The translations under genes were made by a program, and so were the position numbers. Below, one piece after another: positions 11,561 to 30,596 of a stretch of DNA of 64,000 nt (the stretch's first letter is position 1; each line of letters opens with the position of its first letter). The notes beneath the pieces were generated by a model. It ran no database searches. It saw nothing but the letters and a program-made list of their open reading frames with translations, and was not told the origin of the DNA. Origin of the DNA: Patescibacteria group bacterium (GTDB lineage Bacteria; Patescibacteriota; Minisyncoccia; Phycocordibacterales; UBA9973); the NCBI GenBank assembly GCA_040384805.1, contig JAZKIP010000004.1:10255-74254 (forward strand), read 5' to 3'.

Positions 11561-11572
11561 TAAACATCAAGA

Positions 11573-13110: not shown

Positions 13111-13111
13111 C

Positions 13112-14839
13112 TTAAACTACTTCTTGTTGATAACAGGATTCACAGTAGACTATATCTGGTTGGTCAGGAGAATAGGCTGTTTCAAACTCGTTCGAGCAGT
13201 TTTCCTTCATACATTTTCTCTGATAAAGATTAATACCTGTTCTTTGCTTAAGTCTTTCGAAAGTTCTACAGTTTGAACACAAGCGTGGTAATGGAACTCC
13301 AAGCTTTCGATACATCTGTAACTCATCAGGGATTATCTTAAATGCTGTCGTACAGAGTTGATTACATTCACCCCTATGAGCGCATCGGATCACTTTGTTC
13401 AGGATATCCTCATTTACATCTTTTATATGATTGGGTAAATCTTCAGACTCTATGTCTATACTATAATTTCTTTCTATATCATCTTCCCACACATACCCTG
13501 CCTTTCTAGCTTCTTCTTTAGTCAGAGGGAAATATTCTTGTGCGAGAGTAGTATGATACGAAACTGGGGAGAGTTCTGCGGGAAAAAATTCTCCGTACTT
13601 ATAGATATTTCCATTTTTATCTACATACGGCATATCATCTATGTGTTTTTTAATTTTCTCAACAAGCGTGAGGTACTCTTCCTTCGTATATTCTTTGTTC
13701 AAAATACAATATTTCTTGTTGCGAAGCCCGATACACGCAAAAAGATTCTCGGATCCTCTAGTGCAGAACATCGAGTACTCCAAGTCATGCACATTTTCTT
13801 GGCAGAGGACGCAGAACTTGATATTTTGAGTTCCCACACCGCAAGAGTGGCATTCGTATACAAGCTGATTATTATCACCCCATATAGAATAGTCCATACA
13901 ATCTTCACTTCCTGGAGATTCTTGAACATACTGACAATAGCGCATATTCCGACTATCGCGTACAAGCATAGATTTGTGTATGTCTTTGGAGTGATCTATA
14001 TAATTACCAGAAACTTTATCATTTTGGAGTCCTTCAATGAATTTATTTGGAAATTTTAGCCAAAATTCTGCAACCTGTTTTTTAATTTCTGTAAGATTTT
14101 TATAAGAGCCGATATCGAAAGATTTTATTTTCTCTTCGCATTCTTCTTTAGAGTATTCTTCATTGAAGATACAGTATGACTTCTTGCGGAGATTCACACA
14201 ACCAAAGCAATCATTACAGCCCACACAATTCTTGGAAAACATCATATTGAAAGAGTTTACGCATTGTGAGGAGAAGAGTGAGTTATTACATTGAGTAAGC
14301 CAAAATCCTTCATAGCAAAATTCACATTTAGAAATGTGAGAAATGTCTATGCAGAAGCGTGATTGATTGATTCCGTGACCGTACATACAATCCTCTGGCT
14401 CTTTTGTATTAAAAACTAGATAGCTATTCTTTGGGTTACTCGCATGATTTGCGTATGGGCTGTTAACCTCGAATGTAACTCCTCGGTCTCGAATCGGCAC
14501 TCTCTTTAAAAGCTCGAAAAATTGGACAAAGAATGGCTTGGAAAAATCATAGTCCACTCCATACTCCATAGGATCCCATTCGTCTCCTTGCCATATTTCA
14601 TTCTCATACACTTTAATTCCTGATTCTGGTGAGAACATAGCAAGAATATCTTTCCCAGTGAAATCAGTCTTTCTTTTATAAAGCACTCTCTCATTGCGAA
14701 AAGTGAATCGTCTTTGCGCTCGGCATATATAGCAAAAAGTTGGAGGAGGAACTTTTATCTTCTCATAAAATGAAAAATCGTCAGGTTCAATATTAAAGGA
14801 GTTTTTACAGTTTTGGCAATTTCGAGTCTCAGGATTCAT
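13112..14839 (-). CDS. Cysteine-rich cytoplasmic protein with many CxxC zinc-ribbon-like motifs and an internal duplication
   Basis: No signal peptide. More than 40 Cys. N-terminus CQNCKNSF ... FCYICRAQRRF. Repeated units such as CVGCNDCFGCVNLRKKSYCIFNEEYSKEE and FACIGLRNKKYCILNKEYTKEEY. C-terminus CSNCRTFERL ... CMKENCSNEF ... VYCESCYQQEVV. Family not recognised. Confidence 0.6.
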   Translation of the reverse strand: MNPETRNCQNCKNSFNIEPDDFSFYEKIKVPPPTFCYICRAQRRFTFRNERVLYKRKTDFTGKDILAMFSPESGIKVYENEIWQGDEWDPMEYGVDYDFSKPFFVQFFELLKRVPIRDRGVTFEVNSPYANHASNPKNSYLVFNTKEPEDCMYGHGINQSRFCIDISHISKCEFCYEGFWLTQCNNSLFSSQCVNSFNMMFSKNCVGCNDCFGCVNLRKKSYCIFNEEYSKEECEEKIKSFDIGSYKNLTEIKKQVAEFWLKFPNKFIEGLQNDKVSGNYIDHSKDIHKSMLVRDSRNMRYCQYVQESPGSEDCMDYSIWGDNNQLVYECHSCGVGTQNIKFCVLCQENVHDLEYSMFCTRGSENLFACIGLRNKKYCILNKEYTKEEYLTLVEKIKKHIDDMPYVDKNGNIYKYGEFFPAELSPVSYHTTLAQEYFPLTKEEARKAGYVWEDDIERNYSIDIESEDLPNHIKDVNEDILNKVIRCAHRGECNQLCTTAFKIIPDELQMYRKLGVPLPRLCSNCRTFERLKQRTGINLYQRKCMKENCSNEFETAYSPDQPDIVYCESCYQQEVV

Positions 14840-14914
14840 ACATGTATTATATCAGTTTCTATTCCAATCTAGGTCATCAAAAATGACCTTTGTAAAATAG
14901 AGATGAAATTCGTG

Positions 14915-14987
14915 TGCGCCCGGTAGGAATCGAACCTACGACCATCTCCTTAAAAGGGAGCTGCTCTACCGACTGAGCTACGGGCGC
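14915..14987 (-). tRNA. tRNA-Lys (anticodon TTT)
   Basis: Reverse complement GCGCCCGTAGCTCAGTCGGTAGAGCAGCTCCCTTTTAAGGAGATGGTCGTAGGTTCGATTCCTACCGGGCGCA folds as a cloverleaf: 7-bp acceptor, D-stem GCTC/GAGC, anticodon loop CTTTTAA, T-stem GTAGG/CCTAC with TTCGATT loop. Confidence 0.85.
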
Positions 14988-15217
14988 GTGATAAATAAGT
15001 TATATTATAAGGCTAAAATCTTATTTTGTGGGCTAGGAATGACCTATCTAAGTAGACCAACTCCCTAAATCAGATAAATACTCTGCAATCAATATTATTG
15101 ATTAATAAAACCGACTTTCCCAATATAGCAGACTTTTTGTTCAATCGCCAATGCTGTAATTGACTTTAAGTGTGGCATAGACTGATCTAAGAAGAATATA
15201 TGCTAATATATTGAAAT

Positions 15218-16264
15218 ATGGAGAATATGCAATTTAATCCTAAAATGGAAATGCAGAAAAAGCTCGGTATGGATTTTGTTTCCCTGTATACACCTACCGT
15301 AGTAAATGAAATAAAAAATATATTAGAATCATCTTTAGTTCAAGATGGAATAAAGCTTTCAGAGAAAGGGGTAAAGATAGGGGTAACGAAAGGTATTTTT
15401 AATATTAAAATAGGATTATCCAAGAAAAACATATTTAAAACTTCGATGCTTGAAGCCGAAATAATAATCGGCAATCAAAGCAACTCCATAGAGGTCAAAA
15501 GCGAATCCTATGAAGGGAACGATGCTTTGAAAGAAAAAATAAAACCTTTAATAAAGAATCTTATTTCAGAACTTAAGAAATTTATTGAGAACAAATTCAA
15601 AGAAAAACCGCTCCAAATACAAATACAAGGAGAGAGTCTTGAGATAGGATTTGAAAAAATGTTTGAAGAAAAACCTCTATACGATGGCAAGACATGGAAT
15701 TTAAAAAGTAAAAGTAAAGATGGTTCTGAAGTTACTCTGCAAGATTCTCAGGGCGAACTTAAAAAAGTTAAAGCTGAGCAAGTCGTAATTCTTCTTCCGG
15801 AAGATAGATTTAAAATGCCCGAGCATATAAAAAATAATGATCTTGAAAAAAGAAGATGGGAAGAACTTCACAAGGTTCCCTTGGAAAAAATCCCTTTTTA
15901 TTTTAGACCACTGCTGGTAGGTTTTGGGCCAGTGCCAATGTATCCAAACCAGTGGGACGATCTGGAAAAATATGTGGTAGAAGAATCTTCTGACACAGCA
16001 GACAGAACCACATTTATGAGAGGATTGTCTGATAATTATTTTATCAATGAACGCAAAGAGCTTGAAGAATTGCACAAAGGCAAAACTCTTCCTTACGATG
16101 AAGATAGTATTTGGGGGACTTTAGTTTTTAAAACTTTAACCTACTTTGGAAAAGCTAAAAAAGCTGGACTAATAAAGCAATCTTTAGAAGAATTCTTACA
16201 AGATACCCACAAAGAAATCAATCAAAAGTTTGATGATGAAGCTCGGAGCAATACTAAACTTTAG
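15218..16264 (+). CDS. Hypothetical Lys/Glu-rich protein (AT-rich codon usage, no signal peptide)
   Basis: Long ORF with no recognised motifs. Bracketed by tRNA-Lys and a near copy of the tRNA 5' end (see findings). Confidence 0.4.
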   Translation: MENMQFNPKMEMQKKLGMDFVSLYTPTVVNEIKNILESSLVQDGIKLSEKGVKIGVTKGIFNIKIGLSKKNIFKTSMLEAEIIIGNQSNSIEVKSESYEGNDALKEKIKPLIKNLISELKKFIENKFKEKPLQIQIQGESLEIGFEKMFEEKPLYDGKTWNLKSKSKDGSEVTLQDSQGELKKVKAEQVVILLPEDRFKMPEHIKNNDLEKRRWEELHKVPLEKIPFYFRPLLVGFGPVPMYPNQWDDLEKYVVEESSDTADRTTFMRGLSDNYFINERKELEELHKGKTLPYDEDSIWGTLVFKTLTYFGKAKKAGLIKQSLEEFLQDTHKEINQKFDDEARSNTKL

Positions 16265-16491
16265 CTCTTTCTCTAATCACTTTAAAGGTTATTCAAATCC
16301 ATTTGACTTCGCACAGATCCTCTATAGATAGGTCTGTGCAGTTGAAATTGATGAGCCACGGGCGCGCGATCTTGTAAAAGTTATTTCGCAAGTACACTCA
16401 AAAGTATCATATTTTATGGCAAAAAACAACCAGATAATTAAATACCCTTATGCCACTCTCTATTGACATATGATCTACAATCTGTTATATT

Positions 16492-18276
16492 GTGCGAATG
16501 ATATATAACCTTAAAAGAGGATTAGGTAAGGCTTTTAATAAAAAACAACTTTCAGCATTCATAATCGCAGTGGTTATTTTCTCTTCTTTTAACATCGCTA
16601 CAACGCAGGCATTCTCGTCCAAAGGATCATTAAGCGCGGATTTCAGGGAAAACAAGATCGAAATTACCCAAGATGCGCCTTCTCCTAAGCCGATTACAGC
16701 AGATGCCCTTATTTTTAACACAGATGCGCCCCAAGCGATAAAGGCTGATGCTATAACACCACCTGCACACCCGCTTACAACGGACCTTATTCCCACGAAA
16801 GAAGTTGCGCCAAACAAACCAATGAGTCCGTCTCTGATGGTTACGTCTCCGAATGGCAATGAAATATATACCGAAGGACAACAGATCAATGTCACATGGA
16901 TCGCGTCTTCTATATCCTCAACCGCGTCTATAATAATCTCACTTGTCGTTTCTGACCAGAATGACACTTTGCTTGGAGATATGACATTACTAGTATCGAC
17001 GCCCAATGACGGACAGCAGATGGTAACATTGCCCACGATAGATTATATTCAACGCATAGTCCCGGAATTCAACATTGTTGTCCCCGGAAGACACTTCAAG
17101 ATTCTTGTCGGAAGCGATGATGTAAATTCTCCTCTCTACGATTTTTCCGATGACCTTTTCTCAATCAGTAAGCCATCATCGACAGCTTGTACTATTAACT
17201 CTTTTATCGTACCAACACAGACGATTGCATCACAGTTAAGCGCAACAGTCTCGTGGTCTTCCGATTGCAGTAATGTAATTCTTGAAGCAAACTCCGGTTC
17301 ATATACGCTCCGCCATGCCGGGAACGGGACGGGAAGATATACGTTCTCCGCGCCGCGCGGAACCACGTTTTCAAGCGCAGATAACACCCTTGATATGACA
17401 ATCATCGGAGGAAATAATACTGTTGGTGCAGGAACTGTGTCTGTGACAAAATCCGTACCGATCATTAATATTGCCAATCCCGCTTCAAACCAATGTGATT
17501 TCCTCTCTCTTTCCGGGGAGTCGGTTCCTTTTTCTCAGGGAATGGAGGCGCATTTACAATGGCAAGCTCCTGCAGGATGCATGGTTTATGTCGAAGCATG
17601 GAGAGCGACTCCCAACGGATTAGAAAGCAAGTCCATTTTCAAACCCGTAACGTATTATTTCAATGCCGCTGACTCTGTGAACGTGCCGCTTGTGGAAGAC
17701 TCGACGACATTCTACATTTCAGCCCAAGCCGGCTCTCAAAACTCTTCCGGAAGCAGGATGGTTCTTTCCGCCAAGACGATCGATGTGAAGCAAAATGTCT
17801 CACCGCAGATGTGTCTACAATCCACACCGGGCTTTCACATTGTTGCACTCAATTCAAACTCTCCCGCGTCGGCTATGATTCGTCGCGGCGCTACTAATGT
17901 CGAATTTGGCCGATTCGATATAGTTAATACTGGCCAAATCGATATTTGCGGATTAAATAGTATCCAAATCGGCTCACATAGTAATAATAATCTGACGAAT
18001 ATTCGAATGGTCGACGCTTCTACCGGATCTCAAATCGGGCAAACTGCAGCAATGGTCAATAATAATGGATCATATTATTATGAATGGATAAATCCAGCAT
18101 CTCCCATACAACTTTCCATTGGCATGACAAAAACAATCAAGATAGTCGCCGATGTTCCTCTTTCAGTGTCGACAGGAATTGCTCGATTGGGAATTTTGGG
18201 GACTAATTTTATATTCCCTGGAGCGTATGCAAATACTTCCATGCCTGTTTTAGGGAATGTGATGATGATTCGATAA
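16492..18276 (+). CDS. Secreted Ser/Thr-rich surface protein
   Basis: Signal peptide LSAFIIAVVIFSSFNIATTQAFS. Low-complexity S/T/N-rich mature region. Confidence 0.5.
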   Translation: MRMIYNLKRGLGKAFNKKQLSAFIIAVVIFSSFNIATTQAFSSKGSLSADFRENKIEITQDAPSPKPITADALIFNTDAPQAIKADAITPPAHPLTTDLIPTKEVAPNKPMSPSLMVTSPNGNEIYTEGQQINVTWIASSISSTASIIISLVVSDQNDTLLGDMTLLVSTPNDGQQMVTLPTIDYIQRIVPEFNIVVPGRHFKILVGSDDVNSPLYDFSDDLFSISKPSSTACTINSFIVPTQTIASQLSATVSWSSDCSNVILEANSGSYTLRHAGNGTGRYTFSAPRGTTFSSADNTLDMTIIGGNNTVGAGTVSVTKSVPIINIANPASNQCDFLSLSGESVPFSQGMEAHLQWQAPAGCMVYVEAWRATPNGLESKSIFKPVTYYFNAADSVNVPLVEDSTTFYISAQAGSQNSSGSRMVLSAKTIDVKQNVSPQMCLQSTPGFHIVALNSNSPASAMIRRGATNVEFGRFDIVNTGQIDICGLNSIQIGSHSNNNLTNIRMVDASTGSQIGQTAAMVNNNGSYYYEWINPASPIQLSIGMTKTIKIVADVPLSVSTGIARLGILGTNFIFPGAYANTSMPVLGNVMMIR

Positions 18277-22146: not shown

Positions 22147-22177
22147 CAACCTTCTTTTTAGCTTATACCATAGTTAA

Positions 22178-22217
22178 ATCTAAACAATTATAGCGATCGC
22201 TATAATTGTTTAGATTA
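22178..22217. repeat. 40-bp perfect palindrome AATCTAAACAATTATAGCGATCGCTATAATTGTTTAGATT 70 bp upstream of tRNA-Arg
   Basis: Self-complementary. Central GCGATCGC. No T-run after it. Confidence 0.6.
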
Positions 22218-22288
22218 GATAGAGTAATAATTTCCTCCTTTTCGTTCCCTTGCTAATATGACCCTTATAGTATAGATTGGTAAAACAT

Positions 22289-22363
22289 GGTCCCGTCGTT
22301 CAATGGATAGGACGTAACTTTGCGGAAGTTATGATGCAGGTTCGATTCCTGCCGGGATCACCA
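22289..22363 (+). tRNA. tRNA-Arg (anticodon read as GCG; encoded CCA)
   Basis: GGTCCCGTCGTTCAATGGATAGGACGTAACTTTGCGGAAGTTATGATGCAGGTTCGATTCCTGCCGGGATCACCA. Acceptor GGTCCCG/CGGGATC (one G-U), D-stem GTTC/GGAC, anticodon stem TAACT/AGTTA with loop TTGCGGA, T-arm GCAGG-TTCGATT-CCTGC. Confidence 0.75.
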
Positions 22364-23973
22364 AAAACAAAACTTCGGTCTTCAAGAACCCTGAAGCCAT
22401 TTCTGCATTGATAAGCTAGGGTGTCGTGGGAAAACCTGATTTCGGAAAATACCTTCGTGATGATTTGCTGCTTTTCGCTAGGGTTTGCCAATTTATAGTA
22501 TAGATACGCATCCCTGAGGATTTCGGAAAGTTTTACAAGGTCTTTTACGACTTGGTTCAATGGGATATCCGCGCTGTCTTCTTTATTCGCTATTTCCTCT
22601 AACTTTTTTTCTAAGCGCATCTCTTCATTTATGTAATCCTGAGGAGTAAAAACACCGCTCTTCAGTAGGGTAAGTTTATTCATCTGCAGGTACTGGATTT
22701 CTTCCTGAGTTTTCCTTTTCTCCCTCTCTATTTCGACAGCTTCTTTCTTTCGGCGTTCTTCTAAGATAGATAATACTGTTTTAATCCGAGAATCAATCTC
22801 CCGGAGTTCGTCTTCGCTGTAAAAAAGCTGGGATATTTTTTCACCGATAGTATCCTCGATAAAAGCAGAGTTAATACTTCTAAGCGTGTTAGAACAACCA
22901 AAACAACAACGGCTCCCGTAATAATGAATTCCTTTCTTTTCATAGGGCGTATAAACTCTGTTGCAATGGAAACACCTTACGATACCTCGATAGGGGAAGT
23001 AAATCTTATCAGTGTAGTGTACGCTGACGTTCTTCTTCGCAAGTATGCTTTCAGCTCTATAAAAGAGTACTGGGTCAATAATCGGTGCATGGCTTTTGCT
23101 CGGAACCCATTTCCTGCCATTACCTCTTATCTCACCAATATAAAAGCGATTCCTCAGAATCCAGTGGATATGGTTGAAGGTGATAGGCCTGCATACTTTA
23201 TCGATAACTAGTTCTTTGTTTGAAAGCATTTCTTTCAAGCTCCTCTTTCGTCTTACGGCAGGCATCGTGAGACCCTGTTCGTTCGCCCACTTTGCAAGGT
23301 CTATCAGGCTCCACGTTCCCTCAACATACTTTTCAAAGATTTGCTTTATAATTGGAGCTCGTTCCGGGTCGAAGGGTTTATAATAAGGATTTCCCTGATT
23401 AAGGTAGCCGATAGGTGCACGATAGGTACAAATACCCTCATCTCTTAATTTTGTCAGTGCGAAGCGTATCTTTTCGCTTGTAACCCGTGAATGGTGTTCG
23501 GCGAATACTCCGTCAATATCCCGATAAAGCTCGCCTCCAGAATTATTCTCGTAACGAACTAAGACAAAATGCACATCGCTCCCTTGCTTCATAAGTTTAT
23601 TAAGAATACTGTTATCGCTTTTATTACGGCTTATTCTGTCCCAGCAGAGGGCTATAACGCCTCTAATAGCGCTATCATTCATTAGCTGTGTAAGCTTATG
23701 GAACTTGGGCCGCTCTGTATAGTATTGAACCGAACCGTCATCGCGAATCGTTAAGTCCTTATCTTCCTTGAAACCTGTATGCTTTTCTATGATAAATCCC
23801 GATTCGCAAAATCCTTCGATATTCATTGAGGCGATAGGGAGGTTTGCCGATTTAACGTACTTGAGAATCTCCTTCTTTTGGTACTCAATGGAATTCTGCT
23901 GACTATCGGAATCATCCGTACTACGACGAATGTAAACGAGGTACTTATCTTTGTATGGTAACTCTTGACGCAT
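22300..23973 (-). CDS. Large serine recombinase (integrase) with its 3' end reading into the tRNA-Arg gene
   Basis: Resolvase-type catalytic domain (YLVYIRRSTDDSDSQ ... IALCWDRISRN). Recombinase domain. Zinc ribbon CFHCNRVYTPYEKKGIHYYGSRCCFGC. C-terminal coiled-coil. The last 21 codons overlap the tRNA. Confidence 0.85.
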   Translation of the reverse strand: MRQELPYKDKYLVYIRRSTDDSDSQQNSIEYQKKEILKYVKSANLPIASMNIEGFCESGFIIEKHTGFKEDKDLTIRDDGSVQYYTERPKFHKLTQLMNDSAIRGVIALCWDRISRNKSDNSILNKLMKQGSDVHFVLVRYENNSGGELYRDIDGVFAEHHSRVTSEKIRFALTKLRDEGICTYRAPIGYLNQGNPYYKPFDPERAPIIKQIFEKYVEGTWSLIDLAKWANEQGLTMPAVRRKRSLKEMLSNKELVIDKVCRPITFNHIHWILRNRFYIGEIRGNGRKWVPSKSHAPIIDPVLFYRAESILAKKNVSVHYTDKIYFPYRGIVRCFHCNRVYTPYEKKGIHYYGSRCCFGCSNTLRSINSAFIEDTIGEKISQLFYSEDELREIDSRIKTVLSILEERRKKEAVEIEREKRKTQEEIQYLQMNKLTLLKSGVFTPQDYINEEMRLEKKLEEIANKEDSADIPLNQVVKDLVKLSEILRDAYLYYKLANPSEKQQIITKVFSEIRFSHDTLAYQCRNGFRVLEDRSFVFGDPGRNRTCIITSAKLRPIH

Positions 23974-23988
23974 ATAAATTATTATGTC

Positions 23989-24219
23989 TTAATTTTTAAC
24001 TTTTTGCAAAAATCTTTTCCTCTCATCATCAATTGATACTCCTTCAGCGACCAATCGGAGCCGTATTTTCTGCAAGATATCAGTAAAACCGGAGATATTT
24101 TCTATCTCCTCATCTGAAAATATATTCGGTGTTTGATTGTCTGAATCAGTATCCATAATCAAACCTCGAGTTTTAACCGCCGGCGGTTCTTGTGGGTACA
24201 ACCAGACGGTTAATCTCAA
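23989..24219 (-). CDS. Small acidic hypothetical protein (possible recombination directionality factor or regulator)
   Basis: Immediately upstream of the integrase on the same strand. No motif. Confidence 0.3.
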   Translation of the reverse strand: MRLTVWLYPQEPPAVKTRGLIMDTDSDNQTPNIFSDEEIENISGFTDILQKIRLRLVAEGVSIDDERKRFLQKVKN

Positions 24220-24282
24220 AAGGTATGATATGAGAATATCAAAAGACCACCCGAACGAGGGTTACACTAATTTCCTATTAAA

Positions 24283-25434
24283 CTATTTATCAGAAAATCG
24301 CCTTTTAATTCTATGGTTTCTTGTCTTTAGAGTTTGAGCTTTTCTTTTTAACTTATCTTTATATGTATTATCAGGAAAAATTTCTTCATTAGGGTCAAGT
24401 ATTTTGTCAGCGATGTCTTTAAAACTTTCCCCCTTGTCCGCTCTCTGTTTAATACTTAAATCAGTCGCAATGAGAGTCTTCTTGCGACGTCTCTTGTTTT
24501 TCTTTTCATTAAGATTTTTAACTAGTTGATTATATGCAGAGAGGAGATACCTCGGAATTTTCCCTTTTAATGGTAAAGAATTGGTTAGACGGAAAAATCG
24601 CTTCGCAGCATCTTTTTCTTCTGTTGTGTATGAATGCGTGAAGCCTTGAAAAGCATCTATTGCTGTAGGCATATAAAAAACATCCTTTAATTCTAAAATT
24701 TCGCCATAAAGTATATATGGCTCTATCGCTAGATTTTTCAACAAACTCTGTTTTTGTTCAAGTATAACCTTCAATGAAGCATGCTTTTCAAGCAGAAAAT
24801 TGAGATAAGTTGTATATTCCATATCGAATGCTGAACCATCAGGAACTTTATCTGTTGTGAATATTATCTGCGATGCAACGAATTTCTTATTGTATTCCAA
24901 TATCTCTATTGGTTGGATAGGTTCTTGCGTTTCGCTCAAACCAAATGTAGGTTGATGAAATACAAGATTAGCGTTAAGAAGAGAGACTGCTTTAATAAGA
25001 GTATCTTTTTCTTTTTTTAACAAAATTATATTTTCTTGAGTCTTATCGTTTAGTAAAATCCTATAGTTTTTAAGTAGAGTATCAGCACTTTTACTTAATT
25101 TTTGTTGGCAGTAAATACAGTTATCATCCGTTTCGGGATAATCTGGTTTGTTAATTATTTTTATATATTCTTCCGCTGATTTAATAAAAGAACTAAATTC
25201 TTCGGTATTATAAAATTTAATCTCATTAGTTTCTGCTATCTCTTTAATTCCGGTCTGGGCCTTACTCTCAAGAATCGCAATCTGTTTATTCAAGGTGATA
25301 ATTGTTTGCCATTTTTCGTTTGTTAGAGTTGTTTGTGCCGTTCTCATTTTACCACCCTGTACAGTAATTTCTGACATTGATGCTATCAGATTTTGAATCT
25401 CCGTTTCTAGTAAAGTTCTATTTAGGTCAGTCAA
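24283..25434 (-). CDS. Hypothetical protein (383 aa) with basic C-terminus, element cargo
   Basis: No recognisable motif. KKNKRRRKK near the C-terminus. Confidence 0.4.
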   Translation of the reverse strand: MTDLNRTLLETEIQNLIASMSEITVQGGKMRTAQTTLTNEKWQTIITLNKQIAILESKAQTGIKEIAETNEIKFYNTEEFSSFIKSAEEYIKIINKPDYPETDDNCIYCQQKLSKSADTLLKNYRILLNDKTQENIILLKKEKDTLIKAVSLLNANLVFHQPTFGLSETQEPIQPIEILEYNKKFVASQIIFTTDKVPDGSAFDMEYTTYLNFLLEKHASLKVILEQKQSLLKNLAIEPYILYGEILELKDVFYMPTAIDAFQGFTHSYTTEEKDAAKRFFRLTNSLPLKGKIPRYLLSAYNQLVKNLNEKKNKRRRKKTLIATDLSIKQRADKGESFKDIADKILDPNEEIFPDNTYKDKLKRKAQTLKTRNHRIKRRFSDK

Positions 25435-25644
25435 TTCTTTTTGAATATCTTTCAGTTCTTTGGCTTGAACGTCAGTATTGGTAGTGATAACTAGATTAAA
25501 AATTGAAAGTCCGATATGGACTGAAGGTTTATCTGCTAAATAATTTCATTTCTCCGATACTTATTTTAACTAACGGATACCATTTACTCATTTCTGAAAT
25601 CCAAGTGCTAGGCTCACACAGTCGTGCGCAGTACGAGGAGCTTA

Positions 25645-25669
25645 AAAACCACCTGTTCAAGTGGTTTTT
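25645..25669 (-). terminator. Terminator hairpin AAAAACCAC-CTGTTCAA-GTGGTTTTT downstream of the 746-aa gene
   Basis: Stem with A/T flanks directly 3' (minus strand) of the stop at 25700. Confidence 0.55.
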
Positions 25670-25699
25670 AATTTAATCTCATGTAAAACTTAATAAGTC

Positions 25700-27940
25700 T
25701 TAAGAAGACTTCTCTAATTTATTTTTTAGATCCATCCACTCTTTATGGAGTGTTTCTAAGTGTTTTGGAACTTTTTTATCGATAATTGTTTGCAATTCAT
25801 TCCTAAGATTGGCAAAAATTTCCTTTGATGTACCTTCAGTATATCGTTGATTGCCAACTAATTTACCCACTTCAGAATTTGTATTGTTAGAAGAGATATA
25901 AAATCGATTTTTCTTTTGCAACTCAGAAATTGTCTTATCTATTTCATCAATTTTTGCTTGCAGTTTTTTTATGCCTTCTAATTTTTCTAAGTCAGATTCC
26001 CATTTAGTCAAAGCACTACCCTTTCCCAAAAAACCGGCCTTTGGTTTTAGTGCATTATGTCTTGAAATTGAATAATCAATATAAGCAGGAGAAATATTTA
26101 GGTTGGAAAAATTTGATTCAAGGAGTTTTAGTTTATCTTTTTTTGTTTGTCTTTCGATGTTTTGTGTTTTTATTTCTGCATCTACCGAAGGTACTTCAAT
26201 CATATTCCCATTTAAAATGATCTTTTCTTGAGGTAGCGTTGCTTCCAAGCTCGTAAGTTCAACAAGTAAATCTTCTGCATTCTTTCTATCTTGTTCAATT
26301 TTAGCAATAGCAGATCCTATTCTGTAGACATTATCCGCAGCAAAATTTTCTTTTGTTTTTTCTTCCTGCAACTCTTTTTGTTTTAAGGCTACATCTACTG
26401 CTAGTTGTAGTTTTTCAGAAACTTTCTGTTTCATGTAATTAATTTTTTTAATTTTCTCATCAAGATACGCGATCGCATCTGAATACGATCTTGATTTATT
26501 AGCCTCTATGAGTTCATTGATCGGTTTTTTTGCTGAATCACTATAATTTCCATTTATAGCTTTACTGACAGAGAGTTTAAATGCAGTATTAGAATAATCA
26601 GGTCTGCCTATATCAAGACGAAGTTCTGATATTTGATCCTTGCCATTAGTTCCTCTAAGAAGACTTTTTATACCATCTTCTGTATTCAAAGCACGTATTA
26701 CTTCAATAAATTTCTCTAGTTTCACTTTCTGTTTTTTAATTGCTTCTTTTACAGAAACAAAGTTAAACGTCGGAGGAAAAGAAGTTACATCTTTCAGGCT
26801 TTCTTGTAGCGTTTTCACGTATTCAGGTGACATAAGACTTATATAATCCTCATAATTACCACCATAACCTGTAGCATATTCAGGATTGAAGTCTATACCT
26901 TTTGCTTTAAACATTTCAGATTTCTCTTTCATAAGATCTCTGAAATGTTGCTGTAAATTCTCGAATTCCTTCATTGCGTCTCGAGCTTCTGAACCTTCTT
27001 TAGGACTCCCAGACTGCAACTGTTCTTTTAAATCTTGGCTATACTCACGACCATCATCAAATCTTCGGAATTGTTTATTTGTCTGATTCTCGTATGCTTT
27101 TTTCAAAGCTAACTGTGCAACTTCTTTGCCATACATTGCTTCGACTTCATTGAAACTTTGGGGAAATAGTTGAATTTCAGAGGTCCGATTAAAAGTCACA
27201 GTATCATTATTTAACACAATCGCATACTCATGATAGTTGTCGTTCTTGATTGTTAGTTTGCATTCTTTATTCTGTGCGTTACCTTCAAGTGATTGTTTTG
27301 GTATTTCATTCTCGAATGTTTCGGCAATACCATCAACTACTTCAATGTTGCCCTCTGGTGTTTTTAACTTTTCTGTATTAAGCTCAATTTCTATCTCTTG
27401 CAGTTTTTTATTTAACGCTTCTTCTGCTAATTCATATGTAAAATCATTATCATTTGGCATGACTTCAAGATCAATCAGCATTTTATGCAGCTTTGTCTCC
27501 ATTTCTTCAAATTCTGATTCATCTTCTAAGGCTTTTTTATATAGAATAACATCTTGATCCTCTTTGAATTCAGGATGATCTATAAAAGAATCAACACTTT
27601 TAATACCTTTTGTTTCTTCAAGTACATCTTTAAATTCAGCAAAACTTTCCGTCACAGGTTTTTTTCCTTTCTCGACAGAATCTTTCTTACCAGCTTTATA
27701 AGATTTCATTGTTAACTTATCAGAAGTATTATCTGCGAGTGTATTCCTTATTAAAAGCAATCTATTTTTTAGTACATTTATTTCTTTAATTTTAGCTCTA
27801 GTTGGCTCAAGCACAGCATCTTCCTTTGCTTTCTGCTCTGTAATCTTATTTTCGATAGCCTCGGTTTTTAAGTTAGTTAGTTTATCTTTTAATGCCATAT
27901 AGTTTATTATATTTGTTTTATATAGTAATGTACATAACAT
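25700..27940 (-). CDS. Large coiled-coil Lys/Glu-rich hypothetical protein (746 aa; probable start MALKDKL at about 27898), element cargo
   Basis: Long heptad-like K/E/L-rich stretches. No Walker or catalytic motif recognised. Confidence 0.45.
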   Translation of the reverse strand: MLCTLLYKTNIINYMALKDKLTNLKTEAIENKITEQKAKEDAVLEPTRAKIKEINVLKNRLLLIRNTLADNTSDKLTMKSYKAGKKDSVEKGKKPVTESFAEFKDVLEETKGIKSVDSFIDHPEFKEDQDVILYKKALEDESEFEEMETKLHKMLIDLEVMPNDNDFTYELAEEALNKKLQEIEIELNTEKLKTPEGNIEVVDGIAETFENEIPKQSLEGNAQNKECKLTIKNDNYHEYAIVLNNDTVTFNRTSEIQLFPQSFNEVEAMYGKEVAQLALKKAYENQTNKQFRRFDDGREYSQDLKEQLQSGSPKEGSEARDAMKEFENLQQHFRDLMKEKSEMFKAKGIDFNPEYATGYGGNYEDYISLMSPEYVKTLQESLKDVTSFPPTFNFVSVKEAIKKQKVKLEKFIEVIRALNTEDGIKSLLRGTNGKDQISELRLDIGRPDYSNTAFKLSVSKAINGNYSDSAKKPINELIEANKSRSYSDAIAYLDEKIKKINYMKQKVSEKLQLAVDVALKQKELQEEKTKENFAADNVYRIGSAIAKIEQDRKNAEDLLVELTSLEATLPQEKIILNGNMIEVPSVDAEIKTQNIERQTKKDKLKLLESNFSNLNISPAYIDYSISRHNALKPKAGFLGKGSALTKWESDLEKLEGIKKLQAKIDEIDKTISELQKKNRFYISSNNTNSEVGKLVGNQRYTEGTSKEIFANLRNELQTIIDKKVPKHLETLHKEWMDLKNKLEKSS

Positions 27941-28419
27941 TATATAATTTATAAGTAATTTGTCAAATAAAATATTATTTCTTGGAATTTATACCCACCA
28001 GTCCAGTTTTATGTAGCTGCATGAAGGGGTTCAAAGTGATATACTGAAACCAGTAGAAATAACCTTACGTGGTAATGAACCAAGAAGTTCTATCACGATC
28101 AGCATCACCCGTTAGAAAAAGAGCTGCTCGATAAGAGTGGCCTTTTTCTTTTGGTGATTCCGAAGAAGATACCTGTGTATCTTCTGTGCAGGAATCGAAG
28201 ACCTTTTCCATATGAATTTATGAATGGAAAAGGTTTACTGGTCATGTAGTGACCGATACGCGTACTCGCGGTCCTGCCGGGATCACATTTTTGGACAAAG
28301 AGAGGTTTATTCGAACTCATTTAATGGAGAAAGCAACCAGTATCATCTTAGTTGAGGGTTAAACTCATTCTGTTAGGTAAGTCTATGTATTATAGATACT
28401 ATCTGATATTCATATATAT

Positions 28420-29115
28420 ATGAATCTTGAAAGGCAATTCAGCCTAAATAATAAGGCATCAAATCACTTAGAAAAAGGCATTAATCCTATCACGGTTTGT
28501 ATTGGCGATAATTCTAATCATGATATTGATTATTTGTTTACTAAATTCAAGGAAAATAAAAAAACTCAGAATATAAAATACGCAGCATCAAGCGATTATT
28601 ACAAGAAGGAAAATATAATAATTGATTTATCTGGTTATGCAATATCGGAAGGTAATGAAAAAAATAAGTATTCTGAAGAGTATTATAATTGTATTGGAAT
28701 GGCAATAATTGGAATTGATAAAAAAACTAATAAAAATATATCTATTTTAACTCATAAATTTCCTGCTGTTTTCTTGCAGTCGGATAGTCTTGAGAAAAAT
28801 TTTATAACGCAACTCAAAGATCTTGTGTCTCGTTGTAAGCTAGGGACACTTGATGCAGTGATTTTTGGAGGAGATAAAAGTGATGGCAATAGTTTAAAGG
28901 AATACCTAGAAGCAATAAATACTATCAATAAAATATCGAAACCAATTTTAGGATTTGAGCCTACTATTTCTGCCGCGCCAAAATATGACGGAGAAACTAG
29001 TGTTTATTTGGATACAGAAAATCGACGCCTATATGTGAATATCCCTTTCCATAAAGATTCAAAAATTTACGATGATTCGAAACCTTCCGAGATAGAAAAA
29101 GAGTTAGACAAATAA
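28420..29115 (+). CDS. Hypothetical protein (231 aa, very AT-rich codon usage)
   Basis: Lies between the 15-bp att-like copy (28272-28286) and a degenerate second copy (29395-29421). No motif. Confidence 0.35.
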   Translation: MNLERQFSLNNKASNHLEKGINPITVCIGDNSNHDIDYLFTKFKENKKTQNIKYAASSDYYKKENIIIDLSGYAISEGNEKNKYSEEYYNCIGMAIIGIDKKTNKNISILTHKFPAVFLQSDSLEKNFITQLKDLVSRCKLGTLDAVIFGGDKSDGNSLKEYLEAINTINKISKPILGFEPTISAAPKYDGETSVYLDTENRRLYVNIPFHKDSKIYDDSKPSEIEKELDK

Positions 29116-29228
29116 TATCTAACTACCTGATTAAATTACTTTCCTCCAAACTTGTATAACAATTTTCAAAATTAGTTCTCTGTATAGAAATCACCATTGA
29201 GATAGTATTTGAGTAATGTACGGTCTTG

Positions 29229-29314
29229 ATCACAAAGCGCAAAAGAGTTCTGCAGGGAGTTCTTTTGCGCTTTGTGATGATAACAGCGCGGTTTTGCGAA
29301 TACGCAAAACCGCG
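29229..29314. other. GC-rich structured element: 18-bp-stem hairpin (29229-29278) plus 12-bp-stem hairpin CGCGGTTTTGCG-AATA-CGCAAAACCGCG (29287-29314)
   Basis: Two near-perfect hairpins in an otherwise AT-rich intergenic stretch. Only short overlapping spurious ORFs cover it. Confidence 0.5.
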
Positions 29315-29450
29315 AGGGGCGGGCCGCCGAAAATTCCGTATCGACGGCGAGGAGTTATTTGTAGCCACACGTTGATCTGTAAGGATCAATATGAGTATTC
29401 GCGGTCCTAAAATCACATTTTAATACGAGATTCTAATAACCGAAAGATAT

Positions 29451-30596
29451 TTAGTTAAGATTGTTCACCTCTTTTCCTGCTGAAAAAGAATCGGCAAGAG
29501 ATTTGCCTGCCATGATCCCGTTCGTGAAGCCGAAATCGCCGTTGCCGAAAATCTCATAAAGTCCATTGCGCTTTCGTACAGAAGGCCATTCATTGGAAGT
29601 TTTCAGCGTTGCGGCAGTCCAGTGATGGGAGATAGAGATATGTTCTTCTTGCAATGAAGGAAGTCTTTGCTTGATTATTTCAAGCAGTTTTTTTCTATGC
29701 AGCTCGAGTTCTTTTTCTGTCGAATGAGGATCGATTCTGCCCGATGTAAAGAGGCGAGAGCCTATCTTCCGTATATTGTAGTAGTCTTCTCCGAGAGTCC
29801 AGAACATGCCGCCTGTTTTCCAATCAAGATCGGCATCTTGGAGGCTCGATAATGGTTCGGTGACGATCGCTTGTTCGTGCGTAATGATTGCATCATCGGA
29901 ATTAAGGGAAGGATGCTCGCTTTCCAAGGCTATCACTACTCTTTGCGCGGTAATGATGCCGCCAGGCGTAGTAACAGTATGAGCATCGAATGTTATGGCA
30001 GGACTCTGTTCGTAGATGATCGCTCCATTTTCCTCCGCGGCTTGAGCCAAGCCTCGGACAAATTTTACAGGATGCATCATGCAATCTGAAGGATTATAAA
30101 GCTCAAGACCAAAAGGACTGACTTTCAATTGATGACCTTTCTCTATGATTTCTGTCAAAATACCAGCGTTATTGCGGGCTGTCATTTCTTTGCGAAGAAA
30201 TTCTTCCTCGGATTCCGTGGAAGCAATCAACAGGCTTCCTGGTTGTTCAAAGTCACACTCTATGGCATGCTCTTGGATCAAAGACTGGACCATTTTTCGA
30301 GCCTCAACTGTTTTTCGCCAAGAATCTCTGGTAGTATTAAGGCCCATCTGTTCTATGGCTACGACGAAAGGAATCGAGAAACCCTCAACGACCATTCCGC
30401 CGTTTTTGCCCGCCGCACCTGAGGCAATAGTATTTTTTTCGATCAGAATTGTTTTAAAGCCTTGTTTGGCGCAATGATACGCGGCTGAAACTCCCGTAAT
30501 ACCTGCTCCGATTATTACAATATCAGTTTTAATGTTTTCCGATAGCGCCATGCGTGCTTTATAGGGACTGTCGAGCCAGTAAGAAATAGACTTCAT
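29451..30596 (-). CDS. FAD-dependent oxidoreductase (DAO family; glycine/D-amino-acid oxidase-like)
   Basis: Dinucleotide-binding motif VIIGAGITGVSAAYHCAKQGFKTILIEK. C-terminal G(x)GxxG region typical of DAO enzymes. Confidence 0.75.
   Translation of the reverse strand: MKSISYWLDSPYKARMALSENIKTDIVIIGAGITGVSAAYHCAKQGFKTILIEKNTIASGAAGKNGGMVVEGFSIPFVVAIEQMGLNTTRDSWRKTVEARKMVQSLIQEHAIECDFEQPGSLLIASTESEEEFLRKEMTARNNAGILTEIIEKGHQLKVSPFGLELYNPSDCMMHPVKFVRGLAQAAEENGAIIYEQSPAITFDAHTVTTPGGIITAQRVVIALESEHPSLNSDDAIITHEQAIVTEPLSSLQDADLDWKTGGMFWTLGEDYYNIRKIGSRLFTSGRIDPHSTEKELELHRKKLLEIIKQRLPSLQEEHISISHHWTAATLKTSNEWPSVRKRNGLYEIFGNGDFGFTNGIMAGKSLADSFSAGKEVNNLN

What the first reader, a model, noticed from the sequence alone, without database searches (positions are those of the whole stretch)
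22178..29421. Integrated element at tRNA-Arg with a serine integrase, a 15-bp att-like duplication, unknown cargo and a degenerate third att copy
A 557-aa large serine recombinase gene abuts tRNA-Arg and reads 21 codons into it. The last 15 nt of the tRNA (TCCTGCCGGGATCAC) recur at 28272-28286, which is what an attL/attR pair looks like. The 5.9 kb between them is AT-rich, and all its genes are co-oriented. It carries a 383-aa basic-tailed protein and a 746-aa coiled-coil protein of unknown function. These are candidates for phage, defence or anti-defence cargo. A further partial copy (GTATTCGCGGTCCT...ATCACATTTT) at 29395-29421 lies after one more AT-rich orphan gene (28420-29115) and a GC-rich double hairpin, suggesting a decayed second insertion or an older element boundary. 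A 40-bp perfect palindrome sits 70 bp upstream of the tRNA.
Basis: partly seen in the sequence, partly recalled or inferred. Interest (0 to 1): 0.7.

Follow-up and report, generated by a model that had tools for sequence, protein, structure and literature searches.

The report
Serine-integrase mini-element stacked at tRNA-Arg

Summary

- **Integrase:** the 557-aa protein is a large serine recombinase (LSR). It belongs to a large family in Patescibacteria/Paceibacteria. In 47 of 74 informative loci the gene's 3' end overlaps an antisense tRNA gene.
- **Short cores:** family members make only 4-11 bp of att identity. Unintegrated copies, one of them on a circular contig, read through attP into a conserved C-terminal tail.
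- **True attR:** a profile of the family's P arm hits the window once, at 25538-25619 (E 5e-9). That site restores the tail in frame. The live element (E1) is therefore about 3.25 kb, 22362-25617. It holds the LSR, a conserved small ORF and an internal fragment of an ABC-ATPase defence-candidate gene.
- **746-aa gene:** it lies outside E1, in what looks like an integrase-less older remnant (E2, 25618-28103).
- **The 15-mer and the third copy:** these are the 3' strands of two copies of a tRNA-trailing structured module. It gave 85 hits in related loci, 50 of them directly after tRNA genes, most of which have no integrase nearby. Base-pair covariation is strong and Rfam has no match.

The locus is a stack of insertions between the tRNA and its native trailer.

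The parts
22289..22363 (+). tRNA-Arg(GCG), the integration target. The gene is intact. Its encoded CCA is completed by element DNA; relatives without an insertion read ...ATCACAA or ...ATCACAC instead.
22340..22400 (.). attL of E1. It consists of the tRNA T-arm and acceptor 3' strand (B arm), the shared core TCAC at 22358-22361, and the P' arm CAAAAACAAAACTTCGGTCTTC. The P' arm also encodes the integrase C-terminal region.
   Evidence: The P' arm is conserved in L081 and L082.
22300..23973 (-). Large serine recombinase, 557 aa in the integrated form. Its last 21 codons are antisense to the tRNA.
23989..24219 (-). Small ORF 'u76'. Its probable start is the ATG at 24156, giving about 55 aa. It is conserved immediately upstream of the LSR in at least 15 family loci. 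It is a candidate accessory factor, either a directionality factor or a regulator (inferred).
24283..25434 (-). Internal fragment of an AAA_13/AAA_21 ABC-ATPase. It matches PADLOC PDC-S06 profile positions 279-537 of 851, and residues 281-528 of a 654-aa homologue. It has no ATG start and lacks both ATPase head halves.
25529..25619 (-). attR of E1 (site X). This is the family P arm ...TTCTGAAATCCAAGTGCTAGGCTCAC, with the core TCAC at 25614-25617. Read on the - strand it is in frame with the LSR and encodes the conserved free-form tail PSTWISEMSKWYPLVKISIGEMKLFSR*.
   Evidence: (nhmmer E 4.7e-9, the only significant hit in the window)
25618..25641 (.). Start of E2. A short stretch, ACAGTCGTGCGCAGTACGAGGAGC, resembles the tRNA-proximal junction of the element in locus L004.
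25642..25671 (.). Bidirectional terminator-like hairpin between site X and the 732-aa gene.
25700..27940 (-). 746-aa ORF, probably a 732-aa gene starting at 27898. The protein is all-helical and of unknown function. It has about 100 distant full-length relatives and no fold match. It lies outside E1.
27939..27966 (-). Consensus sigma-70-type promoter (TTGACA-16-TATAAT, 12 of 12) for the 732-aa gene.
28004..28108 (.). Site Y, the distal end of E2. It ends ...AAGTTCTATCACGATCAGCATCAC, directly before the native terminator and module A. About 110 nt resemble the distal junction of the L004 element. Probably a decayed attR.
   Evidence: not detected by the family P-arm profile
28104..28288 (+). 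Module A, a terminator hairpin (28104-28165) followed by a structured tRNA-trailer module. Its 3' strand is the 15-mer at 28272-28286. It is ordinarily found directly after the tRNA.
28420..29115 (+). 231-aa ORF of unknown function lying between the two modules. Homologues lie next to tRNA-Arg in L015 and elsewhere in L030 and L043.
29229..29421 (+). Module B, a variant of the same module family. It begins with ATCAC plus an 18-bp-arm hairpin, as it does directly after tRNA-Arg in L017, L019, L010 and L049.
22177..22216 (.). 40-bp perfect palindrome between the thioredoxin-like gene and the tRNA. It is not part of the element and was not found aligned in relatives.

Best explanation
The locus is a stack of insertions between tRNA-Arg(GCG) and its native downstream trailer, in a Paceibacteria-like CPR bacterium.

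**The element next to the tRNA (E1, 22362-25617, about 3.25 kb)** is a miniature integrative element. It is driven by a large serine recombinase from a CPR-wide family that targets the extreme 3' end of tRNA genes.

- *Free circular form.* The integrase gene runs across attP and ends in a conserved tail of about 30 aa.
- *Integration.* The enzyme recombines attP with the tRNA 3' end, over a very short shared core (TCAC here, 6-11 bp in relatives). The tRNA stays intact and even gains an encoded CCA.
- *Consequence for the integrase.* Its gene now ends inside the antisense tRNA, which replaces the tail with 21 unrelated residues.
- *State of E1.* attL, attR and the integrase ORF are intact. The only other content is a conserved small ORF, a possible directionality factor or regulator, and a dead fragment of an ABC-ATPase defence-candidate gene.

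**Downstream of E1**
- E2 (25618-28103) carries the 732-aa helical protein gene with its own promoter. It looks like an integrase-less remnant of an earlier element.
- Then come two copies of a host-type, tRNA-matched structured trailer module (A and B), separated by a 231-aa ORF.
- The 15-mer and the 'third copy' are the 3' strands of these modules. They are not att sites of the integrase.

**Shown:** domain content, family-wide tRNA adjacency, att architecture by comparison, the unique P-arm hit, in-frame tail reconstruction, module distribution and covariation.

**Inferred:** recombination activity, the role of the small ORF, the order of insertion events, and the function of the module.
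For: **The organism and the integrase**
1. The flanking genes SpoU-Fpg-RuvA-u84-Trx-tRNA-Arg are syntenic with Paceibacteria and Nomurabacteria MAGs.
2. LSR identity rests on the Pfam Resolvase and Recombinase domains, PHROG 95 integrase at E 3e-52, a family profile hit to the TP901-1 integrase catalytic domain, and the invariant R16/S18 and Cys334/356/360 in alignment A1.

**Family behaviour**
3. 700 proteins score E<=1e-10 among the 8000 candidates scored. The 119 closest relatives listed are near full length (94-100% of the query) at 47-55% identity.
4. In 47 of 74 informative metagenome loci the LSR 3' end overlaps an antisense tRNA: Glu-CTC 22, Glu-TTC 15, Trp 4, Arg-GCG 2, and Arg-TCT, Arg-CCT, Leu and Ala once each. 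L081, L082 and L083 show the same arrangement.
5. The 27 loci without a tRNA continue through a tRNA-3'-like stretch into the conserved tail ..DPTAWLSELLKLGQ.IKISLDEL... One such contig, L206, has a 127-nt terminal repeat. It is therefore a circular element of about 11.7 kb, and it carries a type III restriction-modification system.
6. attR sites were found in 10 of 50 integrated loci, at 5.4-10.4 kb from the tRNA. Five of these loci were outside the profile's training set. Cores are 6-11 bp in the five pairs aligned in full.
7. No 12-16 nt copy of the tRNA end exists elsewhere in L081 or L082.

**The window itself**
8. The P-arm profile hits only 25538-25619 (E 4.7e-9; E 2.3e-7 in the larger search).
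9. Joining 25617 to 22362 gives a 566-aa ORF. Its tail aligns without gaps to 21 free-form tails.

**The modules**
10. Module A gave 85 nhmmer hits in related loci. Fifty lie within 120 nt downstream of a same-strand tRNA.
11. In L181, L083/L173 and L210 the module lies just beyond the inserted LSR element.
12. On alignment A3, 36 base pairs give 88.7% paired cells against 63.4% in shuffles. The covariation score is 0.667 against 0.20, reached by 0 of 500 shuffles. Four helices are 98-99% paired, with compensatory changes.
13. Module B starts at the tRNA-Arg 3' end in L017, L019, L010 and L049.

**The cargo**
14. The 383-aa ORF is a fragment.
Against: - **Weak core.** The E1 core shared by attL and attR is only 4 bp (TCAC; 6 of 7 for GG[A/C]TCAC), shorter than in the other verified pairs. 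The crossover dinucleotide could not be pinned.
- **Unusual attB.** With E1 removed, the reconstituted attB is the tRNA followed by E2 sequence, not the native trailer. E1 must therefore have integrated into a site whose distal half was already foreign.
- **Smallest member.** E1 is the smallest element seen in the family, and its only cargo is a gene fragment. It could be a decaying, immobile relic.
- **No P arm in the closest cases.** No P arm was detected in the other Arg-GCG-targeting loci (L081, L211, L245). The arm may differ in this subclade.
- **Some 'free-form' copies are chromosomal-sized.** Several sit on very long contigs (L226 730 kb, L195 280 kb), so an unrecombined P-P' junction does not always mean a free circle.
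- **E2 rests on one comparison.** Its status as a separate remnant depends on about 65-70% similarity of its two ends to a single locus, L004.
- **No direct data.** There is no experimental or read-level evidence of excision.
Confidence: 0.72

Rival explanations
1. One element of about 5.9 kb runs from 22362 to 28286. It is bounded by a 15-bp attL/attR direct repeat made by the serine integrase, and the 383-aa and 746-aa proteins are its cargo.
For: - The 15-mer is exact and unique in the window.
- The DNA between the copies is AT-rich and its genes are co-oriented.
- Duplication of a tRNA 3' end is the classic island signature (PMC4383910).
Against: - Verified att pairs in this family share 6-11 bp, and L081 and L082 have no long repeat.
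- The family P arm maps to 25538-25619, not next to 28272.
- The sequence left of the 15-mer is a module. It is conserved at 75-86% identity next to tRNAs in genomes where no integrase lies in the locus held, and it has its own covarying helices.
- In those genomes the same repeat of the tRNA end is present with only about 150 nt between the copies (L021; L010 for the module B variant).
Confidence: 0.05
2. One composite element of 5.74 kb, from 22362 to 28103. Its working attR is site Y (AAGTTC-N14-ATCAC), directly before the native terminator and module A. Site X would then be an internal relic of a nested or earlier copy.
For: - Y abuts the native trailer, exactly as attR does in L181, L083/L173 and L210.
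- Y has AAGTTC at a family-like distance from ATCAC, and an inverted match GAAGTT/AACTTC to P' (sequence).
- The tail that would be restored..DRTSWFITT*, keeps a T-x-W-[LF] motif.
Against: - The family P-arm profile does not detect Y, even at E<=10.
- X is a far better match and restores a full-length conserved tail in frame.
- Both ends of the 25618-28108 segment resemble the ends of the L004 element, which carries a much more distant LSR (24% identity).
Confidence: 0.13
3. The recombinase is not a mobile-element integrase. It is a domesticated invertase or excisase that rearranges the tRNA region.
For: - The orientation of tRNA-Arg relative to RuvA differs among related genomes, roughly 40:60.
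- The tRNA end and the module's 5' part form inverted repeats.
- NCBIfam gives a weak XisF-like match, below its cutoff.
Against: - Of the 80 RuvA-anchored loci, of either tRNA orientation, only three show a distant LSR match (23-24% identity: L004, L059, L058).
- The family occurs at at least eight different tRNA species, with variable cargo and a circular form.
Confidence: 0.03
4. The modules A and B are decayed miniature integrated elements (CIME-like), left by another integrase that uses a 15-bp or longer core. On this view they are not host RNA genes, and the 15-mer is a genuine but old att scar.
For: - Each copy ends in a direct copy of its own tRNA's 3' end.
- The outer acceptor-type helix is paired in only 66% of cells, and the repeat is often truncated, as scars are.
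- Copies occur in tandem (L036 x3) and at several tRNA species.
Against: - Four internal helices are kept at 98-99% pairing with many compensatory changes.
- The 5' part tracks the cognate tRNA as well.
- In L024 the repeat extends 31 nt past the tRNA end into the terminator. That fits tandem duplication better than site-specific recombination.
- No integrase of another type is associated with them in the loci examined.
Confidence: 0.2

Closest known systems
Large serine integrases of phages and integrative elements (phiC31, Bxb1, A118/LI, TP901-1; also CcrAB and XisF)
   Same: Both have the Resolvase catalytic domain and the Recombinase domain, conserved Cys positions of a zinc-ribbon type, and a long C-terminal region. 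Integration uses only a few base pairs of attP/attB identity.
   Different: - The target is the extreme 3' end of tRNA genes rather than a protein-coding gene. [quoted passage not shown] The large LSR survey PMC10083194 never mentions tRNA.
- The integrase gene spans attP, so integration swaps its C-terminal tail.
- The sequence is very distant from solved LSRs. Single-sequence phmmer found none.
phiRSM-type filamentous phage small serine recombinase integrating at a tRNA-Ser gene (from my own knowledge; the paper is cited as ref. 22 in PMC7192596)
   Same: A serine-family recombinase that uses a tRNA 3' end as attB.
   Different: That enzyme is a small resolvase-like protein on an inovirus. 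Here the enzyme is a 557-aa LSR, and no inovirus genes were seen in the related elements examined. I did not test this comparison with sequence.
Tyrosine-integrase genomic islands in tRNA genes (Islander-type signature)
   Same: Both insert at a tRNA 3' end and restore the tRNA from element DNA. Islands stack at one tRNA.
   Different: The recombinase family differs, and the displaced tRNA fragment at attR is only 4-11 bp. The long 15-nt repeat here has another origin.
SSV1-type archaeal integrases whose attP lies inside the int gene (reviewed in PMC8371274, found but not read in detail)
   Same: The integrase ORF overlaps attP, so the integrated and free forms encode different proteins.
   Different: The SSV1 enzyme is a tyrosine recombinase and its gene is split in two. 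Here only the last 21-30 codons are exchanged and the catalytic protein stays whole.
PADLOC PDC-S06 / AAA_13 (RloC-like) ABC-ATPase defence candidates
   Same: Residues 2-260 of the 383-aa ORF match the central coiled-coil part, including a CxxC motif.
   Different: Both ATPase head halves are missing, so it is a fragment and not a system member.
tRNA-like structured RNAs (tmRNA tRNA-like domain, YrlA, viral tRNA-like structures) as analogues of modules A and B
   Same: The modules have an acceptor-stem and T-stem mimic that uses the cognate tRNA's own 3' strand. They sit next to tRNA genes.
   Different: No Rfam family matches. The module has one hairpin in place of the D and anticodon arms, and about 100 nt with three hairpins in place of the T loop. 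Each copy is matched to a different upstream tRNA.

Membership tests
Large serine recombinase (serine integrase) | N-terminal resolvase-type catalytic domain with the nucleophilic serine | tested here: met
   PF00239 at E 2.8e-13. R16 and S18 are invariant in the 36-member alignment. The family profile hits the TP901-1 integrase catalytic domain, 3bvp.
Large serine recombinase (serine integrase) | Recombinase domain (PF07508) following the catalytic domain | tested here: met
   PF07508 at E 3.5e-14, residues 203-313.
Large serine recombinase (serine integrase) | Zinc-ribbon domain with an embedded coiled coil | tested here: inconclusive
   Cys334, Cys356 and Cys360 are invariant and Cys337 nearly so. 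PF13408 appears only for some homologues (P0007; faint in L084-L087) and not for the window protein. No structure was predicted for it.
Large serine recombinase (serine integrase) | Short attP/attB sites with minimal identity, a 2-bp crossover, and hybrid attL/attR | tested here: inconclusive
   Cores are 4-11 bp, and hybrid P/B junctions were seen in the window and in 10 related loci. The central dinucleotide and minimal site sizes were not determined.
Large serine recombinase (serine integrase) | Catalyses unidirectional integration, with excision requiring a directionality factor | not testable with these tools
   Indirect only: both integrated and unrecombined forms exist, one of them circular. 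A conserved small ORF lies upstream.
Islander-type tRNA island (tyrosine integrase) | Tyrosine-family integrase on the island | tested here: not met
   No Phage_integrase domain appears in any ORF between 22300 and 29115.
Islander-type tRNA island (tyrosine integrase) | An intact tRNA gene plus a displaced tRNA fragment marking the island ends | tested here: inconclusive
   A 15-nt fragment exists. It is part of a module that occurs next to tRNAs with no island between the tRNA and the module.
PADLOC PDC-S06 defence candidate | Full-length (~850 aa) ABC-type ATPase with N- and C-terminal head halves | tested here: not met
   Only profile positions 279-537 of 851 are matched. Homologues are 246-654 aa, most of them 460-654 aa, several with AAA_13, AAA_21 or SMC_N domains. 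The window ORF aligns to residues 281-528 of a 654-aa homologue.
Prophage or inovirus | Virion or morphogenesis genes, or membership in viral contig collections | tested here: not met
   PHROGs hits only the integrase. IMG/VR holds no relative above 28% identity. Related elements carry restriction-modification, HTH-peptidase and unknown genes.
Any Rfam RNA family (for modules A and B) | Covariance-model score at or near the gathering threshold | tested here: not met
   Only the two tRNAs pass in the window. The permissive scan of 27900-29500 gave only chance-level hits.

The most novel reading that the evidence does not exclude
Two linked, apparently undescribed things may be present.

(a) Modules A and B could be a new family of tRNA-matched, tRNA-like structured RNAs of Paceibacteria. 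Each copy reuses the acceptor and T-stem strands of the tRNA gene it follows, and carries about 100 nt with three covarying hairpins in place of the T loop. Possible roles are tRNA 3'-end processing or termination, or acting as a tRNA-acceptor mimic.

(b) A CPR-wide clade of large serine integrases may have specialised on the junction between the tRNA and this module. Their genes span attP, so the free and integrated states express different C-terminal isoforms. That would be a built-in state sensor which could bias the direction of recombination.
Probability: 0.3. Interest if true: 0.75.

Novelty: new variant of a known kind. Interest (0 to 1): 0.6.

Why it matters
- **A textbook rule bends.** Serine integrases are generally described as avoiding tRNA genes, and tyrosine integrases as using them. 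Here a large, conserved LSR clade in ultra-small CPR bacteria consistently targets the last bases of tRNA genes.
- **Possible tools.** The attB of these enzymes is a universally conserved type of sequence. That is of interest for integrase tool discovery.
- **CPR biology.** The elements are very small (3-10 kb), and related members carry restriction-modification and other defence-type cargo. This opens a view of how reduced CPR genomes exchange genes.
- **A testable regulatory idea.** The swap of the integrase tail on integration can be tested as a control on recombination direction.
- **A practical warning.** In this lineage a repeat of a tRNA 3' end is not evidence of an island boundary, because a common structured trailer module carries the same repeat.
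- **A candidate new RNA.** The module has unusually clean covariation and no Rfam match.

Tried and rejected
**Searches that found nothing**
- Exact-protein contig look-ups for the window's FAD oxidoreductase and for the LSR found nothing on record. No same-strain empty site could therefore be obtained.
- IMG/VR searches with the LSR, and with the family alignment, found only generic LSRs at 22-28% identity.
- Pfam, PHROGs, NCBIfam and PADLOC gave nothing for the 76-, 746- and 231-aa ORFs.
- The word-indexed protein search made the 746-aa protein look like an orphan. The exhaustive search corrected this, finding 101 relatives.
- Single-sequence phmmer of the LSR against the PDB gave nothing.

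**Ideas considered and dropped**
- *Module A as tmRNA, SRP RNA, 6S RNA, RNase P RNA or a known ribozyme.* Rfam gave no support.
- *A hammerhead-like core in module B.* Rejected by inspection.
- *Site Y as the working attR* (my first alternative). Demoted once the P-arm profile singled out site X.
- *The LSR remnant suggested by tblastn in L018.* It was tRNA-antisense plus module sequence, not an integrase relic.
- *Dyad symmetry of attP.* I could not demonstrate it convincingly and do not claim it.

**Literature.** Searches found no description of CPR tRNA-targeting serine integrases or of the trailer module.

Full report
**Observation.**
- ARAGORN and Rfam place tRNA-Arg(GCG) at 22289-22363.
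- A 557-aa ORF at 22300-23973 on the minus strand carries the Resolvase and Recombinase domains. It overlaps the tRNA by 64 nt.
- TCCTGCCGGGATCAC occurs exactly at 22347-22361 and 28272-28286 and nowhere else, even with two mismatches. Chance expectation is 0.11, and 0 of 100 shuffles gave two hits.
- The partial third copy at 29395-29421 shares both flanks with copy 2.
- The low G+C of 24-29 kb, the 40-bp palindrome at 22177-22216 and the two G+C-rich hairpins are also real.

**Organism and context.**
The left flank encodes SpoU methylase, Fpg, RuvA, a small conserved ORF and a thioredoxin-like protein.
- A scan of species-representative genomes with RuvA returned only Patescibacteria, Paceibacteria and Nomurabacteria MAGs, with 77% identity at best.
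- In nearly all of them the same gene string ends with tRNA-Arg(GCG).
- The window is therefore from a CPR bacterium. NCBI holds the identical proteins as 'Patescibacteria group bacterium', locus tags V4665_01560 and V4665_01565.

**The 15-mer is not what it seemed.**
- Nucleotide comparison showed that window 28094-28290 and 29229-29373 are conserved at 75-86% identity in many of these distant genomes. This holds although ordinary intergenic DNA is not alignable there.
- They usually lie immediately 3' of tRNA-Arg or tRNA-Lys, with no integrase present.
- An iterated nhmmer search found 85 copies of the first module ('A') in the loci held. Fifty begin within 120 nt after a same-strand tRNA: Arg-GCG 25, Lys 12, Ser-TGA 8, and a tRNA with anticodon TTA 5.
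- Module 'B' starts exactly at the tRNA-Arg 3' end in L017, L019, L010 and L049.

*Structure of the module.* Each copy has the following parts, in order.
- A terminator-like hairpin, whose stem includes the last bases of the tRNA.
- A strand equal to the tRNA's acceptor 5' strand.
- A 9-bp hairpin.
- The T-stem 5' strand.
- About 100 nt holding three further hairpins.
- The T-stem 3' strand and acceptor 3' strand of the same tRNA. In the window this last part is the 15-mer.

*Evidence that the structure is real.*
- The end segments change with the tRNA species: GTGATCCCG/CGGGATCAC for Arg, GTGCCCTCG for Lys, GCGGAGG.. for Ser. The loop-side motif is AATCGAA for Arg and Lys but ATTCGAA for Ser.
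- On a 27-copy alignment RNAalifold predicts these helices, and 24 of 27 pairs show double compensatory changes.
- My pair count gives 88.7% paired cells against 63.4% in shuffles. The covariation score is 0.667 against 0.20, reached by 0 of 500 shuffles, and against 0.13 at most when partners are slid.
- Four inner helices are 98-99% paired. The outer acceptor-type helix is paired in only 66% of cells.
- Rfam has no match.
- In L024 the repeat runs 31 nt past the tRNA end, and L036 has three tandem copies. This points to tandem duplication rather than site-specific recombination.

The 15-mer pair is thus a normal property of 'tRNA plus trailer module' in this lineage.

**The integrase family.**
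- The LSR has 700 relatives at E<=1e-10 among the 8000 candidates scored. The closest are near full length at 47-55% identity, and the few that carry names come from Paceibacterota or Parcubacteria MAGs.
- No close relative is in IMG/VR.
- Of 80 metagenome loci fetched with the family alignment, 74 have sequence beyond the gene end. In 47 of these the LSR 3' end overlaps an antisense tRNA gene, of eight different anticodon types. Three loci reached through exact-protein look-ups behave the same way.
- The junctions in the window, L081 and L082 share the element-side sequence CCAAA.A.AAAA....GGTCT. This supplies an encoded CCA that uninterrupted relatives lack.
- In the 27 loci without a tRNA, the ORF instead continues through a tRNA-3'-like stretch (..AAGTTCGGAAAGCCAGGCGGTGGGGTCAC|AAAC..). 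It then encodes a conserved tail..CDPTAWLSELLKLGQ.IKISLDEL...
- One such contig, L206, has a 127-nt terminal repeat. It is a circular molecule of about 11.7 kb carrying a type III restriction-modification pair.
- These loci are therefore unrecombined attP forms. Integration exchanges the integrase's C-terminus.
- In integrated loci I found the matching P arm (AGTTC[TG]GAAA[GT]CCA plus about 10 nt) fused to the last bases of the tRNA, 5.4-10.4 kb away. The five pairs aligned in full share 6-11 bp.
- A profile search extended this to 10 of 50 integrated loci, five of them outside the training set.
- In L181, L083/L173 and L210 module A lies just beyond that attR. These elements insert between a tRNA and its trailer.
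- L081 and L082 contain no second copy of 12-16 nt of the tRNA end.

**Where the window's element ends.**
- The P-arm profile hits the window once, at 25538-25619 on the plus strand (E 4.7e-9; still the only hit in the larger search).
- The site reads ..CATTTCTGAAATCCAAGTGCTAGGCTCAC|ACAGTCG...
- Joining 25617 to 22362 reconstitutes an attP. Across it the integrase ORF stays in frame and ends ..FVFGEPSTWISEMSKWYPLVKISIGEMKLFSR*. This aligns without gaps to 21 free-form tails.
- I therefore place attR of the present integrase at this site X. Element E1 runs from 22362 to 25617, about 3.25 kb, with TCAC as the shared core.

*Contents of E1.*
- The LSR.
- A small ORF conserved just upstream of the LSR in at least 15 family loci, in both integrated and free forms.
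- The 383-aa ORF.

*The 383-aa ORF is a dead fragment.*
- It matches PADLOC PDC-S06 at E 1e-75, but only profile positions 279-537 of 851.
- Most of its homologues are 460-654 aa, and several carry AAA_13, AAA_21 or SMC_N domains. It aligns to residues 281-528 of a 654-aa one.
- It has no ATG start.

**What lies beyond E1.**
- Directly after site X come about 24 nt resembling the tRNA-proximal junction of the element in L004. A bidirectional terminator follows at 25642-25671. Next is the 746-aa ORF, preceded by a perfect consensus promoter at 27966-27939.
- Homologues and the promoter indicate a 732-aa protein.
- It has about 100 distant full-length relatives and no Pfam domain. The alignment-based model is confident (pLDDT 87) and all-helical. 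No informative structural neighbour was found.
- None of the 248 loci held encodes a relative.
- The segment ends at site Y (..AAGTTCTATCACGATCAGCATCAC|CCGTTAG.., 28085-28108). Site Y and the roughly 110 nt before it resemble the distal junction of the L004 element, which carries an LSR only 24% identical to ours.
- I read 25618-28103 (E2) as the integrase-less remnant of an earlier element of another LSR lineage. E1 would have inserted later, between the tRNA and E2. This step is inference and rests on one comparison.
- After Y comes the native arrangement: terminator hairpin and module A (28104-28288), a 231-aa ORF with homologues beside tRNA-Arg in L015, and module B (29229-29421). The decayed end of module B is the 'third copy'.

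**Mechanism** (inferred from the anatomy and from established knowledge of serine integrases).
- LSR dimers bind attP on the circular element and the tRNA 3' end, then exchange strands at a dinucleotide within or next to TCAC.
- The tRNA is preserved through C74 and completed to CCA by P'.
- The integrase gene then terminates inside the antisense tRNA. This replaces the conserved 30-aa tail by 21 unrelated residues.
- Whether the tail or the small ORF controls directionality is unknown.
- Cargo in relatives includes a MamI-type and a type III restriction-modification system, an HTH-peptidase pair and a tyrosine recombinase. No virion genes were seen. These look like small integrative, plasmid-like islands, not phages.

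**Rivals.**
- *A single 5.74-kb element ending at Y.* This remains possible, at roughly 13%.
- *A domesticated invertase.* The variable orientation of tRNA-Arg among relatives hints at this. But only three of the 80 RuvA-anchored loci show even a distant LSR match, so it is unlikely.
- *The modules as old att scars of another integrase.* The truncated repeats favour this. The strong internal covariation argues against it.

**Comparison with the literature.**
- The Islander paper states that serine-family integrases are not known to target tRNA genes (PMC4383910).
- The large LSR survey does not mention tRNA (PMC10083194).
- Searches for CPR serine recombinases returned only the inovirus survey.
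- From my own knowledge, the small serine recombinase of phage phiRSM uses a tRNA-Ser gene, so there is a partial precedent.

**Verdict.**
This is a genuine LSR integrative element of a known kind, with three unusual family-wide traits. It targets tRNA 3' ends, its integrase gene spans attP, and it is very small. The accompanying trailer module is a candidate new structured RNA.

Noticed in passing
window 28104-28288 and 29229-29421; loci L001-L080, e.g. L021:9475-9630, L036:2621-3041, L024:4211-4366: A conserved, tRNA-matched structured module follows many tRNA-Arg, tRNA-Lys and tRNA-Ser genes in Paceibacteria. It has four covarying helices and an acceptor/T-stem mimic of the upstream tRNA, is sometimes tandemly repeated, and has no Rfam match. 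It is a candidate new RNA class.
   Followed up: partly
L035:13659-13732, L039:13355-13428, L044:14417-14490, L047:12901-12974, L049:13655-13728, L054:13818-13891: In six related genomes ARAGORN calls a tRNA with anticodon TTA, which would read the UAA stop codon. It sits where other genomes have tRNA-Lys(TTT). This could be a suppressor tRNA, a sign of codon reassignment, or a mis-set anticodon call.
   Followed up: no
loci L001-L054: The orientation of tRNA-Arg(GCG) relative to the conserved RuvA-Trx block flips between related genomes, roughly 40:60. This suggests recurrent local inversions around this tRNA.
   Followed up: no
window 10000-16500: A second low-G+C stretch (0.33-0.39) contains a Fic/DOC protein gene (11573-12721), tRNA-Lys (14914-14987, - strand) and unannotated 575- and 348-aa ORFs. 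The 575-aa protein has homologues near tRNA genes in several relatives. This may be another island.
   Followed up: no
window 22177-22216: A perfect 40-bp palindrome centred on GCGATCGC lies between the thioredoxin-like gene and the tRNA. It was not found aligned in relatives and has no T-run. Its function is unknown.
   Followed up: partly
L084-L087 (e.g. L084:11839-13962): Contigs carrying the free-form LSR P0019 also hold a second, 510-aa LSR whose 3' end overlaps an antisense tRNA-Glu(CTC), plus a 133-aa resolvase fragment. Unrelated LSRs therefore share the tRNA-overlap habit within one element neighbourhood.
   Followed up: no
L206:1-11834: This contig, with a 127-nt terminal repeat, is a circular family member of about 11.7 kb. 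It has the LSR in attP form, a type III restriction-modification pair and four ORFs of unknown function. It would serve as a reference for the free state of these elements.
   Followed up: partly
L226 (730-kb contig), L195 (280 kb), L237 (128 kb): Some unrecombined (attP-form) LSR copies sit on very long, chromosome-sized contigs. The P-P' junction can therefore persist inside chromosomes, through tandem integration, residence in larger elements, or another mode of insertion.
   Followed up: no
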